Under the pieces are notes generated by a model. The model saw only the letters and a list, made by a program, of their open reading frames with translations. It was not told the origin of the DNA and made no database searches. Positions 3,868 to 60,782 of a DNA stretch of 64,000 nt are shown piece after piece; the first letter of the stretch is position 1, and each line of letters begins with the position of its first letter. Origin of the DNA: the human T2T-CHM13v2.0 reference genome, Homo sapiens; the NCBI RefSeq assembly GCF_009914755.1, contig NC_060931.1. The stretch is one strand, 5' to 3'. The position numbers and the translations under genes were made by a program.

Positions 3868-4259
<392 letters not shown>

Positions 4260-8812: not shown

Positions 8813-8815
<3 letters not shown>

Positions 8816-8851
<36 letters not shown>
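8816..8851 (+). repeat. Poly(T)36 tract
   Basis: Pure T run with no adjacent Alu body. Confidence 0.95.
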
Positions 8852-37680: not shown

Positions 37681-37806
37681 GATGAGAAAGCAAAATGCAA
37701 TAAATATGCTGATGAACTTGCAAAAATGGAGCTGAAATGGAAAGAACAAGTGAAAATTGCTGAAAATGTAAAACTTGAACTAGCTGAAGTACAGGACAAT
37801 TATAAA
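37681..37806 (+). CDS. TAX1BP1: TAX1BP1 coding exon (probable exon 13; ~aa 547-588)
   Basis: ttcatttag|GAT GAG AAA...TAT AAA|gtaagt; DEKAKCNKYADELAKMELKWKEQVKIAENVKLELAEVQDNYK; 126 nt. Confidence 0.97.
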
Positions 37807-47582: not shown

Positions 47583-47913
<331 letters not shown>

Positions 47914-50546
47914 CTTTTTTTTTTTTTGAATCGTGTTTGAAATGTTTCTTGGATTTAACCTTTCTTTTTTTTCTGTAGTCACATGCCAGTCTTGAATGAC
48001 TACAGTAGCATCTCTGGGGTTTTCAGTCATGGCAAGAGATGAAGGATATCTTTTGAATGCCTTTCTTGTTCTAAATGTATCTCCTATTTCTCAATAGCCC
48101 TGTAAGGCTTAGAAAAGGTAAATTCTTTAGGGTTATTAGTGCTGATCTGATAATCAAATCTAGGTCAGCCTGATTCCAATCTACCATGCTGTGCTGCCTT
48201 CCTACTAATTTGCTTCTGGTTTTGAGTATGCCCATTATTGTTTTGCTAGATTAACCTTACCAAGGACCATTTTTACCGTGTTGTTATTGTTAAAAAACCT
48301 GAAGGCCCATTGTAAATTGTATGACAGATTTGACACATCTGACCTTCAACTTGTCTTTTCAGCTATATCTCCTGCCTGAGACAGGGTCTTGCCTTGCTAT
48401 GTTGCTCTCTAACTCCTGGGCTCAGGTGATCTTCCCTCCCAAAGTGCTGGGATTATAGGTGTGAGCCACCATTCCCAGCTCCTGCTGCTCTTAATATGCA
48501 TCCTTTGCTCTAGTCATATTTTACCAAGCCTGAAATACGTTATTATTTCTCATATGTTCTGTATCTTTTTATTTACTTTATGTCAGAATGCTCTTCATCT
48601 GCTTGGTGAAAATTCCTTAGGATCCATCTCAAATGGCTCTTCTCTATAGTCTCTTCCTAGTATACAGTGTTTCCATTTTGATACATTGCATTTTACCTTC
48701 ATCTCTATACGAGACCACTTACCACAATTAATTGCTAATTATTTATCTAGAGTTGTACCTTTTATTAGACTGAATTCTTTGCAGGCAAAATCCATTTCAA
48801 GTTAATCTTTGTATCTCTAGTTCCTAGTACGGCACCTGTTACATAATAGATGGTGTGCTAGGTATCTTGAAAGAGTATTTTCCTTTTTTGCTTAAAATTT
48901 CACAAGTCTTATTTTTGCAGTTAAATAATGAGTGGTTGAAAGGCAGGAATGCCATCTTAACCTCACAGTTTTACACAGTACCTGGCATAGTTGATATGTG
49001 GACGTGTATGTTATGTATGGACTTGCTTAGAAAGAACTTTTAATTCCTGCATCTCTTATCAAACCTAAGTTGACTTGCATTTTTCTTAATGTTTGCAAGT
49101 TTTGCTCTTGATGATGACTTTCATTTTAAGGTTACTTAGTCCATTTATTGGATCATTTATATAGGTAAAAATGTGTTAACTTAGACACAGTCTCATCTCT
49201 ACCCCCAAGAAATGACAAGCAGCAAAACCAGCTCAACTTTCCAGACTAAATTTTTCATTCTTATATCCTTTGTTAATAAGGCCTCTGGTTGATTTTTTTT
49301 TTTTAACAGCTCTGTTAAGGTGCAGTTTACATGTAATAGAATCTGTTCATTTAAATAGAGTTTGATGACTTTTGGCAAATGCATGTAGTTCTGTAACTAC
49401 CGTTTCATTCAAGCAGTGTAACGTTTCCATTACTGCACAAAGTTCCCTCTTGCTCATTTGCATTCGTCCCCTCCTGCTACCCCCCTGTCCTAGAAAACCT
49501 CTGGTCTGCTTTCTGTCCCTGTCGTTTTATGGCTTCTAGCATTTCATGTAATTGGAATAAAGCAGAATTTATCCATTCATTAGTTGATAGACATTAATCT
49601 ACCAGCTGATGGACATTTAAATTATTTCTGATATTTTGCTATTACAAATAATGCTGCTATGAACATTCTTACGTAAGTCTTTTTGTGGACATATGTTTTC
49701 ATTTTTCTTGAGTAGATACCTAGGAGTGGAATTGCGGGCTTATATGGTAAGTGTATGTTTTTAATGAAACGGCCGAATTGTTTTTACAAAGTGGCTGTAC
49801 CATTTTTGTATTCCCACTGGCAGTGTATGAGCATTCCAACTGCTCCATATCCTCACCAGCACTTGGTATTTTTGTCAGTCTTTAATTTTAGTCATCCTAG
49901 TGGGTGTATTAGTGTTATCTCATTGTGGATTTTAGTTTTAATTTCCCTGATAACTAGTGATGCTGAGCATCTTTTCATGTGCTTGCAGGCCATTTGTACA
50001 TATTCCTTTGTGAAGTTTCTGTTCAAATCTATTTTTTTTTATTGAGCTGTCTGTCATCTTTGGTTGCGACAGTTCTTTATATATCCCAGATATAATTCCT
50101 TTGTCAGATATTTTGGTGTTATTTTCTTCCAGTCTGTGATTTCTTTTTTCCTTTTTTACAACATTATCTTTTGAAAAGCAAAAGCCTTGAATTTTGAGGT
50201 AGTCCAGTTTATCAGTATTTGTCTTAATGCTTCATGCTGTTTGTCCTATCTTAAATTTTTGCCTAAATCAAGGTTATGAAGATATTCTCCTATTTTTTTC
50301 TTCCAAAAGGTTTGTAGTTTTAGCTCTCTTACTTTAGATTTATGATCTATTTGTTTTTTATATGGTATGATATGTAGTCAAAGTTTATTTTGTATATAAG
50401 TACCCAGTTTTTAAAGATCATGTTGAAAAGACCATCCTTTTCCTCCATAGAATTTCCTCTACATCTTGAGGTATTTTAAATGTTGAAAATACTCTATAAG
50501 TATGGGTCTACTTTTAGAATCTATATTCTATTTTATTGATTTTTAT

Positions 50547-50757: not shown

Positions 50758-51427
50758 CTATATTCTTATGCCAATACTATACCGTCTTGTTTACTGTAGC
50801 TTTATAATACGTCTTGAAATCAGGTTTCATAAGTCCTCCAACTTTGTTCTGCTTTTTTTTTTTTTTTTTTTTTTTTCTTAAAGACAGCATCTCCCTGCCA
50901 TCTTCCAGGCTGGAGTGAGTGGCTTGATCGTAGTTCACTGCAGCCTTGACCTCGACCTCTTGGGCTGAAGTGATCCTCCTGCCTCAGCCTCTGAAATAGC
51001 TGACTACAGGCATGTGCCACTGTACCTGGCTAAATTTTTTCTTGTTTTCTTTTCTTTTCTTTTTTTTTTCTTTTTTTTTCTGAGACAGGGTCTTACTCTG
51101 TCACCCAGGCTGGAGTGCAGTGGTGCCATCATGGCTTACTGTAGCCTTGACCTCCCAGACTCAGGTGATCCTCCCACCTCAGGTTTCTGAGCAGTTGGGA
51201 CTATAGGCACATGCCATCACACCCAGCTAATTTTTGTATTTCATGTAGAGAAAGGGTTTGCCATGTTGCCCAGGCTGGGCTCAAGTGATCCACCCAGAGC
51301 CTCACAAGTGCTGGGATTACAGGTATGAGCCACGGTGCCTGGCCATTTTAAAATTTTTTATTGAGATAGGGTCTCACTATGTTGTCCAGGCTTGTCTCAA
51401 ACAGGCAATCCTCCTGCTTTGGCCTCC

Positions 51428-51735
51428 CAAGTGCCACATTGTGAAAATCAGTGAGAAACAGGAAATGAAGGTGGCTTGTCCAATCTGATTCAAAGGCTTG
51501 AGGAGTTGTACAGTGGCCAATAGTCACACACATCCCATTAGTAACTACTTATTTAGGAATGAAATAAACACATTAATTTTCTTTCAATTTATGTGTAGTT
51601 TTTTTTTTAACGGTCACTAAATTTGTTAGAAGACAAATACTTAATGGTCAGTAAGTCCTCACTTAACATCATAGAGCAGTTCTTAGAAACTGCAACTTTA
51701 AGCGAAAGGACTTACAGCAGGTTGAAAGAAATAAC
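51428..51735 (-). repeat. Inverted copy of 56846-57160
   Basis: By-eye alignment: about 8 substitutions plus a 7-nt homopolymer-tract length difference over ~310 bp; mirrored ORFs in the track. Confidence 0.96.
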
Positions 51736-51736
51736 T

Positions 51737-52002
51737 CCTCATGATCCGCCCGCCTCGGCCTCCCAAAGTGCTGGGATTACAGGTGTGAGCCACCGCACTT
51801 GGCCTTTTTTTTTTTTTTCTTTTTTTTGAATCGTGTTTGAAATGTTTCTTGGATTTAACCTTTCTTTTTTTTCTGTAGTCACGTGCCAGTCTTGAATTAC
51901 TACAGTAGCATCTCTGGGGTTTTCAGTCTTGGCAAGAGATGAAGGACATCTTTTGAATGCCTTTCTTGTTCTAAATATATCTCCTATTTCTCAGTAGCCC
52001 TG
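51737..52002 (+). repeat. Direct copy of 47846-48102 (Alu 5' end plus unique flank)
   Basis: Shared unique sequence ttgaatcgtgtttgaaatgtttcttggatttaacc...ctcctatttctca(a/g)tagccctg. Confidence 0.96.
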
Positions 52003-52452
52003 GAGTTACAGGCATAAGCCATCATGTCCAGCCTGTTCTGCTTTTTACATATGGGCTATTACAGGACCTTTGTGTTTCTGTGTACATTTTAGAATTATTT
52101 TGTTAATTTGTACAAAAGCCTACTGGGATTTTGTAGGCATTGTATTGTATCTATAGTTAATTTGGGGGGGGAATTAATAGCATAAAAGTACTAAGTTTTC
52201 TAGTCCATGAACATGTTATATGTCTCCCTTTGTTTATGCTCTTCTTAATGCATTATTTTGTTTAGTGTATAGGCTTTGCACATCTTTCATATATTTATTC
52301 CTAAACATTTTATCTATTGATTTTACTCTAAGTAGAATTATTAAAAATATCATTTTCCAATTATTTGTTGCTGTATGTAGAAATACAATTGATTTTACAT
52401 ATTGATCTTGTATACTGCAACCTGACTAAATTATTTACACTCATTTTTCTAG

Positions 52453-52745
52453 TTTTTTTTTTGAGACGGAGTCTCATTCTGTCACCCATGCTGGAGTGCA
52501 GTGGCGTGATCTCGGCTCACTGTAACCTCCATCTCCCAGGTTCAAGCAATTCTTTCTGCCTCAGCCTCCTGAGTAGCTGGGACTACAGGTGTGTGCCACC
52601 ACGGTTGACTAATTTTTTTGTATTTTTAGTAGAGACGGGATTCCACCGTGTTAGCCAGGATGGTCTTGATCTCCTGACCTTGTGATCCATCCGCCTCGGG
52701 CTCCCAAAGTGCTGGGATTACAGGCGTGAGCCACTGTGCCCGGCC
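52453..52745 (-). mobile_element. Alu (AluS-like)
   Basis: Antisense dimer; TSD atttt(t/c)ctagttttt. Confidence 0.95.
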
Positions 52746-53462
52746 ATTTTCCTAGTTTTTATAGATTTTTTGGGATTTTTTACATTTATCCTCATACCAT
52801 TGTGAATAAAGATTGTTTTACTTCTTCCTTTCCAGTCTACCTTAATTTTGCCTTGATCCACTGGCTATTTTGAATGGAAGTGTTGAGAGCAGACATCATT
52901 GTCTTATTATTATTGATCTCATTTTGATCTTCAGTAGAATCATTTAGTTTTTCACCATTAAGGGTCACAGTAGGTTTTTATAGCTGCCTTTTATGAGGTT
53001 AAGAGAGCTCCTTTTTATTCTTTAGTTTCTGAGATTTAAAAAAAATCATGAATGACTTGAATTTTGTAAAATATTTCTTCTGCGTCAATTGAAATGATCA
53101 TGTTTCTTTTTCCCCTTTATTAAAAGGTAAATTACATTTATTGATTTTTGGATGTTGAACTGCATTTGGTTTTTGGATGTTAAAATGACTTTTTTTGTGA
53201 TAAAGTCCATTTGATCATGTTTTATTTTTTAATATTGGGTTTGACGTGCTATAAGTTAAGGCTTTTGCATCAATATTTATGAGGGATAAGGTCTCTAGTT
53301 TTTTTGTGAAATCCTTGTTTTTGGTATCAGAATAATACTGGCTTTGTAAAACAAGTTAGGAAATGTTTCTTTGTGTTTTGAAAGAGTTTATACAGGACAC
53401 ATTTTTATAAAAAAATCTTAAGTGATAGAATTCACGTTTTTCTTTTTTTAAGGAGACTTTTT

Positions 53463-54057: not shown

Positions 54058-54229
54058 GAACTTAAAAGGAGTCTAGAAAATCCAGCAGAAAGGAAAATGG
54101 AAGGTCAGAATTCCCAGAGTCCTCAATGTTTCAAAACATGCTCAGAGCAAAATGGTTATGTTCTCACATTGTCAAATGCACAACCAGTTCTGCAATATGG
54201 TAATCCTTATGCATCTCAGGAAACAAGAG
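54058..54229 (+). CDS. TAX1BP1: TAX1BP1 coding exon (probable exon 14; ~aa 589-646) with internal alternative donor after 54103
   Basis: attttag|GAA CTT AAA AGG AGT...AGA G|gttatt; ELKRSLENPAERKMEGQNSQ...ASQETR; internal GAA G|gtcaga lies 126 nt upstream in the same phase. Confidence 0.95.
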
Positions 54230-56655: not shown

Positions 56656-56720
56656 AAATGGACTAAACCAGAGGTTTTCATACTTTCTTAGTTCTAGTAA
56701 CCCCTAGGCCAAAAGAAATA

Positions 56721-56932
56721 CAGTAAGTCCTCACTTAATGTCATATATAATAAGTTACTGGAAATTGTGACTTTAAACGAAATGATGTGTAACAAAACCA
56801 GTTTTTTCCCTCATCAACGTTGTAATGAACCGATGAAAGAATGATGTTATTTCTTTCAACCTGCTGTAAGTCCTTTCACTTAAAGTTGCAGTTTCTAAGA
56901 ACTGCTCCATGATGTTAAGTAAGGACTTGCTG
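56721..56932. mobile_element. MER6-like Tigger-family MITE
   Basis: Terminal inverted repeats cagtaagtcctcacttaatgtcat and atgatgttaagtaaggacttgctg; preceded by TA. Confidence 0.75.
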
Positions 56933-57295
56933 ACCGTTAAGTATTTGTCTTCTAACAAATTTAGTGACCATTAAAAAAAAAAGAAAAAACTACACATAAA
57001 TTGAAAGAAAATTAATGTGTTTATTTCATTCCTAAATAAGTAGTTACTAATGGGATGTGTGTGACTATTGGCCACTGTACAACTCCTCAAGCCTTAGAAT
57101 CAGATTGGACAAGCCACCTTCATTTCCTGTTTCTCATTGATTTTCACAATGTGGCACTTGCTTTATATCACAGCAACTGCCAAAACCAGCATCTCGAAGA
57201 TAAGATGGCATTGAAAGGAATGTGTAGCACATTTAAAGTTGAATCTGTGAGCGATCTCCAGTGACTGTAGTTGTTCACGTGGTATATGACAAATG

Positions 57296-57510
57296 CAGAT
57301 GCTCCTCAACTTACGATGGGGTTACATCCTGATAAACCCATCATAAGTTAAATATGTGTTTTTGACTTGAAGGATATTTTCAGCTTACAGTGGGTTCATT
57401 GGAACGTAACCCCATCATAAGTTGAGGAAGGTACTGAATGTGTATTGCTTTTGTACCATCTTAAAGTTCAAAAATTGTAAGTCTAACCATTGTATGTTGG
57501 AGACCAACTC
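57296..57510. mobile_element. MER47/Tigger5-like element with internal palindrome
   Basis: cagatgctcctcaacttacgatggggttacatcctgataaacccatc and its inverted counterpart gtaaccccatcataagttgagga. Confidence 0.7.
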
Positions 57511-59364: not shown

Positions 59365-60680
59365 TAATTTTTTGTGATAGCTTGAGATATAATTCACATA
59401 TTATACAATTTGCCATTTAAAGTATACAATTTAGTGGTTTTTAATGTATTCACAGAGCTGTGCAACCATCACCGCATTCAATTTTAGAACATTTTCCTCA
59501 CCAGCAAAAAAAACCCTGTAGCCTGTAGCGGTTAACCTCTTCCCATTTATTCCCACCAGCCCAGGAAACCCTCAGTCCACTTTGTTTATAGATTCGTCTG
59601 TTCTGCATAGTAATATAAGTCAAATCATAAAATTGTTATCTTTTGTGACTGGTTTCTTTCACTTAGCATGTTTTCAAAGTTATCCATGTTTTAGTATGCA
59701 TCCATGTTTAACATGAAGAATGGGTTTTATTCTTGTTTGTTTGGGTGGTTAGATTGAGCATCCAAAATCCGAAACTGAGTGCTGACATGATACTCAAAGG
59801 AAATGCTTACTGGAGCATTTTGGATTTTCAAATTTGGGATGTTCAGCTGGCAAGCGTAATGAAGTATTACAAAATCTGAGAAAGTCTGAAATCTGAAACA
59901 CTTCTGTTCCCAAGCATTTTGGATAAGGGGGACTCAACCTGTCCCACATTTTGTTTACCCATTCATGTGTTAGACATTTGGGTTATTTCACCTTTTGGCT
60001 ATGGCATACGTGCTTTTGTTTTCATACCTTTTTACTTCTTTGGGGAAAGTGGAATTACTAGGTCAGTTCCACTAGCAACTGCTGTAGTGGAAATCCTAGG
60101 AGTGGAACTGCTGGGTCATGTGGTAACTCTTATGTTTACCTAAACCTTTTGAAAAACTGCCCGATTGTTTTCCCCAGTGGCTGCATGACTCTACATTCCC
60201 ATCAGTAGTGTATGAGGGTTCCACTTACTCCACATCCTCAGCCACACTTGTTACTTGTCTTTGTGAAATGGTTCATCATTGTGATTTTGATTTGCATTTT
60301 CCTGGTGGTTAATGATGTTAAGCATCTTTCATGTGCTTGCTGGCCATTTGTATATCCTCTTTGGAAGAATATCTGTTCAAATCCTTCTGCTGTTTTCAAA
60401 TTGGGCCCCTTATCAGATAATAGGGTTTGCATATATGTCTCCCATTCTGTGGGTTGTCTTCACTTTTACGATGGTGCTCTTTGCAGCACAAAACTTTTTA
60501 GTTTTAGTGAAGCTGAATTTATGTTATTTTGTTGCTTATACTTTTGTTATACCTAAGAAACCATGGTCTCTCCAAGGTTTTTAATTTACTCGTATGTTTT
60601 CTTGTAAGGGCTTTATAGTTTTAGCTCTTATATTTGGTTTTTGGTCTATTTTGAGTTAATTTTTGAATATGGAGCAAAGT
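59365..60680 (-). mobile_element. L1M 3' fragment containing a second Tigger4a-like MITE (59750-59942) in opposite orientation to the first
   Basis: gagatataattcacatattatacaatt...; MITE ends cccaagcattttggataagggggactcaacctg. Confidence 0.75.
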
Positions 60681-60782
60681 AAAGCTTTTGAAAACTAACA
60701 GATGTGCAAAATTATTTTTAATTTTTGAATATGGAGCAAAGTAAAACTTTTGAAAACTAATAGAGATTTGCAAAATTATTTT
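60656..60782 (+). repeat. Tandem duplication, ~62-bp unit
   Basis: ttaatttttgaatatggagcaaagtaaa(g/a)cttttgaaaactaa...tgcaaaattattt occurs twice (starts 60656 and 60718). Confidence 0.92.

What the first reader, a model, noticed from the sequence alone, without database searches (positions are those of the whole stretch)
51428..52002. Two-template, microhomology-flanked insertion splitting an Alu arm (fossil template-switch repair)
Seen: an Alu left arm reads ...ggcctcccaagtg, is interrupted by ~575 bp, then resumes ctggagttacaggcataagcc with essentially no host loss. The insert is an inverted copy of 56846-57160 (about 5 kb downstream), one untemplated T, then a direct copy of 47846-48102 (about 4 kb upstream). 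The left junction shares caagtg with the host and the right junction shares ctg. It has no poly(A) or TSD of its own. Direction is readable because the donors lie in an intact MER6-like MITE and an intact Alu, while the copies truncate them. Known: multi-template local insertions with junction microhomology are signatures of FoSTeS/MMBIR or polymerase-theta-mediated end joining. Inference: one germline repair event copied from both sides of a ~9-kb neighbourhood. It postdates the AluS at 47617, and ~3% divergence between copies suggests it predates modern humans.
Basis: partly seen in the sequence, partly recalled or inferred. Interest (0 to 1): 0.82.

Follow-up and report, generated by a model that had tools for sequence, protein, structure and literature searches.

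The report
Old two-template patch inside an Alu
A 566-base patch copied from two nearby places was pasted into an Alu repeat in a TAX1BP1 intron millions of years ago, a clean but ordinary scar of copy-and-paste DNA break repair.

Summary
Window 51428-52002 is an inverted copy of 56846-57160 (300 of 308 aligned bases identical), then one T, then a direct copy of 47846-48102. It splits an old Alu left arm. The two Alu halves abut exactly when aligned to intact Alus. CAAGTG at the left junction and CTG at the right are shared between host and donor, so the net insert is 566 bp.

In the T2T genome no other locus holds the composite, and the unique part of the upstream segment occurs only twice. 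The direction is donor to insert, because both donor borders lie inside intact older repeats. There is no poly(A), no target-site duplication and no L1-type target.

Divergence is 2.6% at non-CpG bases and 46% at CpG bases. That rules out an assembly artefact.

Best reading: one germline repair event that copied two local templates, primed by microhomology. This is a known kind of event. Both segments could also have been copied from the sense strand by the two break ends, which leaves an RNA-templated variant open. No primate orthologues could be checked. Interest is low to moderate.

The parts
50877..51045 (-). Right arm of the old host Alu (antisense on the + strand). It is separated from its left arm by a younger nested Alu.
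   Evidence: Read. The limits are approximate. The Alu nature follows from Alu matches (families D3 and D5).
51046..51345 (-). Younger Alu nested in the linker of the host Alu, flanked by an AAATTTTTT-like duplication.
   Evidence: Read. Alu families D1, D3 and D5. The limits are approximate.
51346..51433 (-). Host Alu left arm, the part before the insert. It ends in ...CCTCCCAAGTG.
   Evidence: Aligns to intact Alus up to the position that immediately precedes the start of the other half.
51428..51433 (+). Left junction microhomology CAAGTG, shared by the host Alu and the donor at 57155-57160 (reverse complement).
51428..51735 (+). Inverted copy of 56846-57160.
   Evidence: 300 of 308 aligned bases identical, with one 7-base gap in a T run. 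E = 6.8e-140 genome-wide.
51736..51736 (+). Single T at the inner junction, matched by neither donor. Both donors have A at the adjoining position (56845 reverse complement and 47845).
51737..52002 (+). Direct copy of 47846-48102: the last 70 bases of an Alu, a T run and 183 bases of flank.
   Evidence: The unique part 51825-52002 has only two places in the genome, at 97% identity.
52000..52002 (+). Right junction microhomology CTG, shared by the donor (48100-48102) and the host Alu.
52000..52034 (-). Host Alu left arm, the remainder after the insert (CTGGAGTTACAGG...).
   Evidence: Aligns to intact Alus starting at the base right after the end of the first half.
47846..48102 (+). Upstream donor, copied in direct orientation.
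47617..47915 (-). Full-length Alu whose last 70 bases lie in the upstream donor. It is intact across the donor border at 47846.
   Evidence: Contiguous alignment across 47783-47913. The subfamily was not determined.
56846..57160 (-). Downstream donor, copied in inverted orientation.
56937..57294 (-). Old interspersed repeat, here called family X (name unknown). It is intact in the donor, and the copy starts inside it at 57160.
   Evidence: 5 of 5 distinct other loci align across 57160, reaching 57221-57294.
56716..56932 (-). MITE of about 215 bp with terminal inverted repeats, here called family Y. It is intact in the donor, and the copy ends inside it at 56846.
   Evidence: 6 of 6 other loci fetched span about 56932-56716 at 74-77% identity. 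The terminal repeats were read.

Best explanation
This is one germline repair event in a hominoid ancestor, roughly 10-30 million years ago. A break, or a collapsed replication fork, arose in the left arm of an Alu in a TAX1BP1 intron. It was mended by copy-and-paste DNA synthesis on two nearby DNA templates.

Shown:
- The insert is an inverted copy of a stretch 5.4 kb downstream, plus a direct copy of a stretch 3.9 kb upstream.
- Both donors are still intact.
- The host lost and gained nothing.
- The two outer junctions carry 6 and 3 bases of microhomology, and the inner junction carries none, only a single T.

Inferred:
- The 3' end ...CAAGTG paired with CACTTG on the + strand at 57155-57160 and was extended by about 300 bases.
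- The second segment arose in one of two ways. In the serial FoSTeS/MMBIR form, the same nascent strand jumped to 47846, copied to 48102 and returned to the host through CTG. In the two-ended form, the other break end (...CCAG-3' on the bottom strand) paired with CTG at 48100-48102 and was extended leftward on the same + strand. The two extended ends were then joined with one extra base.
- I slightly prefer the two-ended form, because microhomology sits only where priming is needed.
- The patch has no evident function. It is a neutral scar that became fixed.
For: - **Templated origin and orientation:**
- **Donors retained and direction:** other members of the two old repeat families run across both borders of the downstream donor (5 of 5 and 6 of 6 loci). 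The Alu at 47617-47915 is continuous across the border of the upstream donor.
- **Host Alu halves abut exactly**.
- **Microhomologies:** CAAGTG and CTG read directly. The chance of 6 or more matching bases at a given junction is 1 in 4096, and of 3 or more is 1 in 64 (arithmetic).
- **Not a repeat family:** no second copy of the composite in 3.1 Gb. The unique upstream part has 2 of 2 places on this chromosome segment.
- **Age and reality:** there are 25 mismatches in 565 gapless columns. CpG bases differ at 11 of 24 and other bases at 14 of 541. The donor carries the derived state at 3 or more sites and the copy at 1 or more. So the two have evolved apart for a long time.
- **Same age for both segments:** 8 of 308 against 6 of 183, Fisher p = 0.78.
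- **The kind is documented in passages I read.** Germline multi-template insertions flanked by microhomology are described in PMC8421209. Templated insertions of 376 and 815 bp at human junctions, and blunt junctions within iterative events, are described in PMC5120786.
Against: - No empty allele was seen, because no primate orthologues or other human assemblies are held by these tools. The pre-insertion state is therefore inferred from other Alus.
- The inner junction has no microhomology, which is not what a polymerase jump predicts, although blunt junctions are reported in such events.
- There is no excess of changes on the copy's lineage, which error-prone synthesis might have left. The numbers are tiny.
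- The tracts of about 300 bases copied 4-5 kb away are much longer than typical theta-mediated inserts, which are 2-35 bp and 5-15 bp in passages of PMC7454005. The enzyme is therefore unknown.
- Both templates have the polarity of the TAX1BP1 transcript. This is expected in 1 of 4 cases by chance and is what an RNA template would give.
Confidence: 0.62

Rival explanations
1. The geometry and single event are the same, but the template was RNA. Both 3' ends of a two-ended break paired by microhomology with unspliced TAX1BP1 pre-mRNA, the sense strand, which is abundant at its own locus. A reverse-transcribing polymerase (Pol theta or L1 ORF2p acting without its endonuclease) extended each end by about 300 bases. 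The two cDNA-tipped ends were then joined. This would be a class-2 'templated sequence insertion'.
For: - Worked out, the top-strand end CAAGTG-3' pairs with + strand 57155-57160, and the bottom-strand end CAG-3' pairs with + strand 48100-48102. Both segments are therefore what cDNA of a + strand transcript would give.
- TAX1BP1 is on the + strand, and both donors are intronic according to the hub's annotation.
- The absence of a TSD and poly(A), with microhomology and a one-base addition, matches the description of class 2 in passages of PMC5110952.
Against: - The orientation match has a 1 in 4 chance under DNA models.
- Class-2 insertions are described as coming from distant regions, whereas these donors are 4-5 kb away.
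- There is no RNA-specific mark. No splice junction is crossed. The A/G differences in the Alu piece sit at CpG positions, so they look like CpG decay and not editing.
- Local DNA templates explain the proximity equally well.
Confidence: 0.2
2. There were two independent insertions at the same nucleotide at different times. One segment arrived first, and the other landed later exactly at its junction with the host.
For: The inner junction has no microhomology. The point estimates of divergence differ slightly, at 2.6% against 3.3%.
Against: It needs two breaks at the same base. The divergences are statistically indistinguishable (Fisher p = 0.78). The host is continuous across the whole insert.
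Confidence: 0.05
3. L1-mediated retrotransposition of a local transcript with a 5' inversion (twin priming), or a class-1 templated insertion.
For: One segment is inverted relative to the other, as twin priming produces. Both donors are transcribed.
Against: - There is no poly(A) at either end. The T runs inside the insert are inherited from the donors.
- There is no target-site duplication. The longest word shared by the 40-bp flanks is ACAGGCA, which lies away from the junctions.
- The target CAAGTG/CTGG is not TTTT/A-like (criteria from passages of PMC5110952).
- In twin priming the inverted piece lies upstream of the direct piece in the RNA. Here the order is the reverse for the sense transcript, and the layout is wrong for an antisense one (reasoning).
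Confidence: 0.02
4. This is not a real event. It is either an assembly chimera, a member of a composite repeat family, or the reverse direction, in which the 'insert' is the source and the 'donors' are the copies.
For: None found. Read-level support could not be examined.
Against: - A chimera would be identical to its sources. The copies differ at 25 of 565 positions with a CpG-decay pattern, and the changes lie on both lineages.
- No other genomic locus carries the composite.
- Both donor borders lie inside intact older elements, and the insert interrupts an Alu.
Confidence: 0.01

Closest known systems
Germline templated insertions attributed to microhomology-mediated break-induced replication or fork stalling and template switching (MMB-TIs; iterative template switches at human rearrangement junctions)
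   Same: - The inserted DNA is copied from nearby sequence while the donors stay in place.
- Microhomology lies at the junctions.
- Direct and inverted pieces are mixed, and more than one template can contribute to one event.
- Germline events with up to five templates are described in passages of PMC8421209.
- Templated insertions of 376 and 815 bp, and occasional blunt junctions, are described in passages of PMC5120786.
   Different: - The catalogued germline MMB-TIs were searched for only within 100 bp of the site and are read-length short.
- The clinical cases accompany large copy-number changes.
- Here two tracts of about 300 bp come from 4-5 kb away, there is no other rearrangement, and the event is fixed and old.
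[quoted passage not shown]
   Same: Several templates are copied, strung together and inserted at one locus, and the string returns to the host chromosome. This is a copy-and-paste pattern with both inverted and non-inverted junctions (passages of PMC7025897).
   Different: Those events are somatic, and their segments were detected as copy-number gains. By definition 'bridges' leave a gap and 'cycles' re-replicate host sequence. Here the host shows neither.
Class 2 templated sequence insertion polymorphisms (Onozawa and Aplan)
   Same: No TSD and no poly(A), with microhomology or a non-templated base at the junctions. They are interpreted as a patch in a double-strand break in the germline, with donors that are transcribed sequence (passages of PMC5110952).
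   Different: They are described as coming from distant regions and as derived from RNA. Here the donors are local, an RNA origin is unproven, and the insert has two pieces.
Polymerase theta-mediated end joining with templated insertions
   Same: Copying is started and finished at microhomologies of a few bases. An untemplated base is possible, and templates many kilobases away have been reported (passages of PMC7454005).
   Different: Reported inserts are 2-35 bp or 5-15 bp. These tracts are about ten times longer.
Short-range template switches in great-ape genomes (four-point model)
   Same: A fixed evolutionary footprint of a transient switch to another template and back (passages of PMC7954356).
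   Different: That model covers one local switch within a replication fork at small scale. Here there are two templates and a kilobase range.

Membership tests
Replicative templated insertion (FoSTeS/MMBIR type) | The inserted sequence is a copy of other genomic sequence, and the donor is retained. | tested here: met
   Both donors are present and intact.
Replicative templated insertion (FoSTeS/MMBIR type) | Microhomology at the junctions. | tested here: met
   6 bases and 3 bases at the two outer junctions. The inner junction has none, only a T. That makes 2 of 3 junctions.
Replicative templated insertion (FoSTeS/MMBIR type) | Iterative switching: two or more templates in one event. | tested here: inconclusive
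   Two templates are present and their divergences are indistinguishable. A single event is the parsimonious reading but was not shown. A two-ended model needs no serial switching.
Replicative templated insertion (FoSTeS/MMBIR type) | Raised density of point changes in or near the newly synthesised tract (error-prone synthesis). | tested here: inconclusive
   The repeat families were used as an outgroup for the 8 substitutions of the inverted segment. The donor was derived at 3 or more sites, the copy at 1 or more, and the rest were ambiguous. There is no excess in the copy, but there are too few sites.
Replicative templated insertion (FoSTeS/MMBIR type) | Dependence on replication or break-induced replication factors. 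| not testable with these tools
   This needs experiments.
Polymerase theta-mediated end joining insertion | Short templated tracts (a few to tens of bases), usually from the flanks. | tested here: not met
   The tracts are 308 and 266 bases, from 3.9 and 5.4 kb away. Reported sizes are 2-35 bp.
Polymerase theta-mediated end joining insertion | Microhomology at the start and end of the insert. | tested here: met
   CAAGTG and CTG.
Class 2 templated sequence insertion | No TSD, no poly(A) and no cryptic poly(A) signal use, with end-joining features at the junctions. | tested here: met
   with the junction reading.
Class 2 templated sequence insertion | The template is RNA from a distant region. 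| tested here: inconclusive
   The donors are local, so 'distant' is not met. The polarity fits the sense transcript, which has a 1 in 4 chance. The RNA origin cannot be tested from one fossil.
L1-mediated insertion (class 1, twin priming) | A target-site duplication of 5 bp or more, a poly(A) tail and a TTTT/A target. | tested here: not met
   None of the three is present.

The most novel reading that the evidence does not exclude
The patch is a fossil of RNA-templated break repair in the germline. Both ends of one double-strand break were extended by reverse transcription on the nascent pre-mRNA of the very gene in which the break lay. This would explain why both segments have sense-strand polarity, why microhomology sits only at the two priming sites, and why the middle junction looks like plain end joining.
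Probability: 0.18. Interest if true: 0.55.

Novelty: new member of a known kind. Interest (0 to 1): 0.27.

Why it matters
This is a very legible example of a multi-template, microhomology-primed insertion. Its junctions are still readable after millions of years, both donors are preserved, and the host was neither trimmed nor duplicated. That makes it useful as a teaching case and as a positive control for programs that search genomes for kilobase-range templated insertions, which short-range detectors miss.

It changes nothing known about TAX1BP1. It lies deep in an intron, and no exon or annotated element is touched.

The one point of wider interest is the polarity rule noted here: both segments can be copied from the sense strand by the two break ends. 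Applied to many such fossils, that rule could test whether transcripts serve as repair templates in the germline.

Tried and rejected
- **Primate orthologues and other human haplotypes.**
- **Composite repeat family.** Rejected by three whole-genome searches. In some searches only 40 of 1381 and 40 of 1596 first-look candidates were scored, and most of them were Alu or old-repeat hits. One search, with the unique part, had 2 candidates and both were scored.
- **L1 twin priming.** Rejected (plus reasoning on segment order).
- **Alu-Alu homologous recombination or gene conversion as the cause.** Rejected, because the host Alu resumes exactly and is not chimeric.
- **Tandem duplication followed by deletion.** Rejected as unparsimonious, because the inverted segment lies between the host and the direct copy.
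- **Snap-back priming on the break's own resected tails.** Rejected, because each end would then copy its own side in inverted form, whereas each end copied the opposite side (reasoning).
- **Meiotic hotspot motif.** A 13-mer recalled from memory was not found between 50000 and 53500. This says little either way.
- **Polarising substitutions with repeat-family members.** This worked only partly, because CpG sites and the palindromic MITE give ambiguous states.
- **First gapped alignment of the Alu end.** It introduced spurious gaps and was replaced by gapless blocks.
- **Family names.** The names 'MER6-like' and 'AluS' could not be verified, because no repeat library is held.

Full report
**What is there**

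Window 51428-52002 lies in an intron of TAX1BP1, between the exons at 37681-37806 and 54058-54229 by the hub's annotation. It sits inside a cluster of antisense Alus.

The repeat finder and BLAST agree on the composition:
- 51428-51735 is the reverse complement of 56846-57160.
- 51737-52002 is a direct repeat of 47846-48102.

In a global alignment the inverted segment has 300 matches, 8 mismatches and one 7-base gap in a T run. A single T at 51736 separates the two segments.

These are the two strongest self-matches of the whole 64-kb window at 90% identity or more. The next is an ordinary Alu-Alu match, and 11 matches were listed in all.

**Host and junctions**

The sequence to the left (...CCTCCCAAGTG, ending at 51433) and to the right (CTGGAGTTACAGG..., from 52000) are two halves of one Alu left arm. 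I aligned each half separately to six intact Alus of the window.
- In 3 of 6, the left half ends at the base just before the right half begins, a gap of 0.
- In the other 3, the local aligner put one half on the other Alu arm or truncated it.
- An explicit alignment to 52640-52760 also abuts.

So the host neither lost nor duplicated sequence.

CAAGTG (51428-51433) is present both in the host and at the donor border (57155-57160, reverse complement). CTG (52000-52002) is present both at the donor border (48100-48102) and in the host. The net new material is therefore 51434-51999, which is 566 bp.

Reading, the host appears to be an old dimeric Alu (about 50877-52034). It also carries a younger Alu (about 51046-51345) nested in its linker, with an AAATTTTTT-like duplication.

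**Not a repeat family and not an artefact**

The window's own genome (3.1 Gb, 24 contigs) was searched three times.
- With the whole insert, only this locus covers positions 1-575. The two donors follow, at E = 6.8e-140 and 6.0e-99. All other hits are Alu pieces, or matches at 74-78% identity to positions 1-219 (40 of 1381 candidates scored).
- With the non-Alu part of the direct segment (51825-52002), there are exactly two places, the copy and the donor, at 97% identity (2 of 2 candidates scored).
- With the wider downstream donor region, the only high-identity partner is the insert (40 of 1596 scored).

An assembly chimera would be identical to its sources. These copies differ at 25 of 565 gapless columns.

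**Direction**

One search shows that the downstream donor is made of two old interspersed repeats.
- Family X (my label) runs from about 57294 to 56937.
- Family Y is a MITE of about 215 bp with terminal inverted repeats, at 56932-56716.

Five of five distinct other loci of family X align across the copy's start at 57160, reaching 57221-57294. L004 and L016 are the same locus and were counted once. Six of six loci of family Y span the copy's end at 56846. The donor therefore holds both elements whole, and the insert holds truncated pieces.

Likewise the Alu at 47617-47915 is continuous across 47846, while the insert holds only its last 70 bases joined to the same flank. Together with the split host Alu, this gives three independent arguments for donor to insert.

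They belong to family X. This does not affect the argument, because other X copies are only 70-78% identical.

**Age**

Gapless blocks give these mismatch counts:

| Block | Mismatches | Length |
|---|---|---|
| Family X part | 2 | 171 |
| X end plus MITE | 6 | 137 |
| Alu end | 11 | 74 |
| T run plus unique flank | 6 | 183 |

- Bases that are part of a CpG in either copy differ at 11 of 24 (46%, interval 26-67%).
- Other bases differ at 14 of 541 (2.6%, interval 1.4-4.3%).
- Outside the Alu piece the divergence is 14 of 491 (2.9%, interval 1.6-4.8%).

Human and chimpanzee differ by about 0.92% at non-CpG bases and about 15% at CpG bases. Both classes here then correspond to roughly three to four times the human-chimpanzee distance, with an overlapping range of about 2 to 4 times. 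That is near the recalled human-orangutan distance (about 3-3.4%) and below the human-macaque distance (about 6.5%).

I read this as an event roughly 10-30 million years old, probably shared by all great apes. This is an inference from few sites. Later gene conversion would make it look younger.

Using members of families X and Y as an outgroup for the 8 substitutions of the inverted segment:
- The donor carries the derived state at 3 or more sites (57137, 56929, 56921).
- The copy carries the derived state at 1 or more sites (51611).
- The rest are ambiguous.

Both lineages have therefore changed since the event. There is no sign of an excess of errors in the copy, though the power is very low. 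The two segments have indistinguishable divergence (8 of 308 against 6 of 183, Fisher p = 0.78).

**What it is not**

There are no A runs of 8 or more in the insert, and its T runs are inherited from the donors. The longest word shared by the 40-bp host flanks is ACAGGCA, which lies away from the junctions, so there is no target-site duplication. The target CAAGTG/CTGG is not L1-like.

Twin priming puts an inverted upstream piece before a direct downstream piece that ends in poly(A). Here the inverted piece comes from downstream of the direct one on the sense transcript, and the layout is also wrong for an antisense transcript.

Alu-Alu recombination would give a chimeric Alu, not an interrupted one.

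**How it most likely arose**

The data fit a single copy-and-paste repair event primed by microhomology. Two geometries are possible.

1. **Serial switching (FoSTeS/MMBIR).** A nascent top strand ending in CAAGTG leaves the host and pairs with the + strand at 57155-57160. It copies leftward to 56846 and jumps to 47846. It then copies rightward to 48102 and returns through CTG.
2. **Two-ended.** After 5' resection, the left 3' end (top strand, ...CAAGTG) pairs with the + strand at 57155-57160. The right 3' end (bottom strand, ...CCAG) pairs with the + strand at 48100-48102. Both are extended leftward on the + strand by about 300 and 260 bases. The two new ends are then joined with one extra base.

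The second form explains why microhomology is found only at the two outer junctions and why the inner one looks like plain end joining. Blunt junctions are also reported within iterative events, though (passages of PMC5120786).

The T at 51736 may be untemplated. Alternatively it may be a later change of an A, because both donors have A at the adjoining position.

In the two-ended form both templates are the + strand, which is the sense strand of TAX1BP1. Unspliced pre-mRNA could therefore have served as the template. That would place the event with the class-2 templated sequence insertions (passages of PMC5110952), and with the reverse-transcriptase activity reported for Pol theta (title and abstract of PMC8195485 in a search listing). 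The orientation match has a 1 in 4 chance under DNA models, and there is no RNA-specific mark. I give the RNA variant about 0.2.

**Comparison with what is known**

- Germline insertions copied from nearby templates, flanked by microhomology and built from up to five templates, are described in normal human genomes. The search behind them was limited to templates within 100 bp (passages of PMC8421209).
- Templated insertions of hundreds of bases occur at constitutional rearrangement junctions.
- Strings of 2-7 templates inserted at one locus are a major class in cancer genomes (passages of PMC7025897).
- Theta-mediated inserts are reported as 2-35 bp (passages of PMC7454005), about ten times shorter than these tracts.
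- Short-range template switches fixed in great apes are catalogued at a smaller scale (passages of PMC7954356).

The present case is a new, fixed, kilobase-range member of this known kind. I did not find it described. My literature searches were aimed at the class and not at this locus, so I make no claim that it is unpublished. The supplementary tables of those papers were not opened.

**Verdict**

It is a neat but ordinary scar with no visible function.

Noticed in passing
window 50877-52034: The host seems to be one old dimeric Alu that has been hit twice. A younger Alu (about 51046-51345) sits in its A-rich linker with an AAATTTTTT-like target duplication, and the templated patch sits in its left arm.
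   Followed up: partly
window 56937-57294 and 56716-56932: The downstream donor consists of two old repeat families with many genomic copies at 70-78% identity. One is unnamed here. The other is a MITE of about 215 bp with terminal inverted repeats and a weakly palindromic body.
   Followed up: partly
window 57296-57400 (minus strand): The end of another DNA-transposon-like element, with a terminal ...CCCCATCGTAAGTTGAGGAGCATCTG, abuts the old repeat next to the donor.
   Followed up: no
window 51599-51608 vs 56973-56989, and 51805-51827 vs 47916-47928: Both T runs inside the copied segments differ in length and in an interrupting C between copy and donor (T10 against T6-C-T10, and T14-C-T8 against T13). 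This is slippage, either during the copying or later.
   Followed up: no
window 51737-51810 vs 47846-47919: Every CpG present in either copy of the copied Alu end differs between copy and donor: each sits opposite TG or CA in the other, at six different positions (7 CpG-type mismatches among 14 CpG bases). The Alu therefore still had most of its CpGs when it was copied, which suggests that the event followed the Alu's arrival fairly soon.
   Followed up: partly
window 60656-60782: A tandem duplication of about 62 bp, with the two units 92% identical.
   Followed up: no
window 4149-4184 and 8815-8850: A 36-base perfect inverted match that is only two long poly(A)/poly(T) tails. It is of no significance.
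   Followed up: yes
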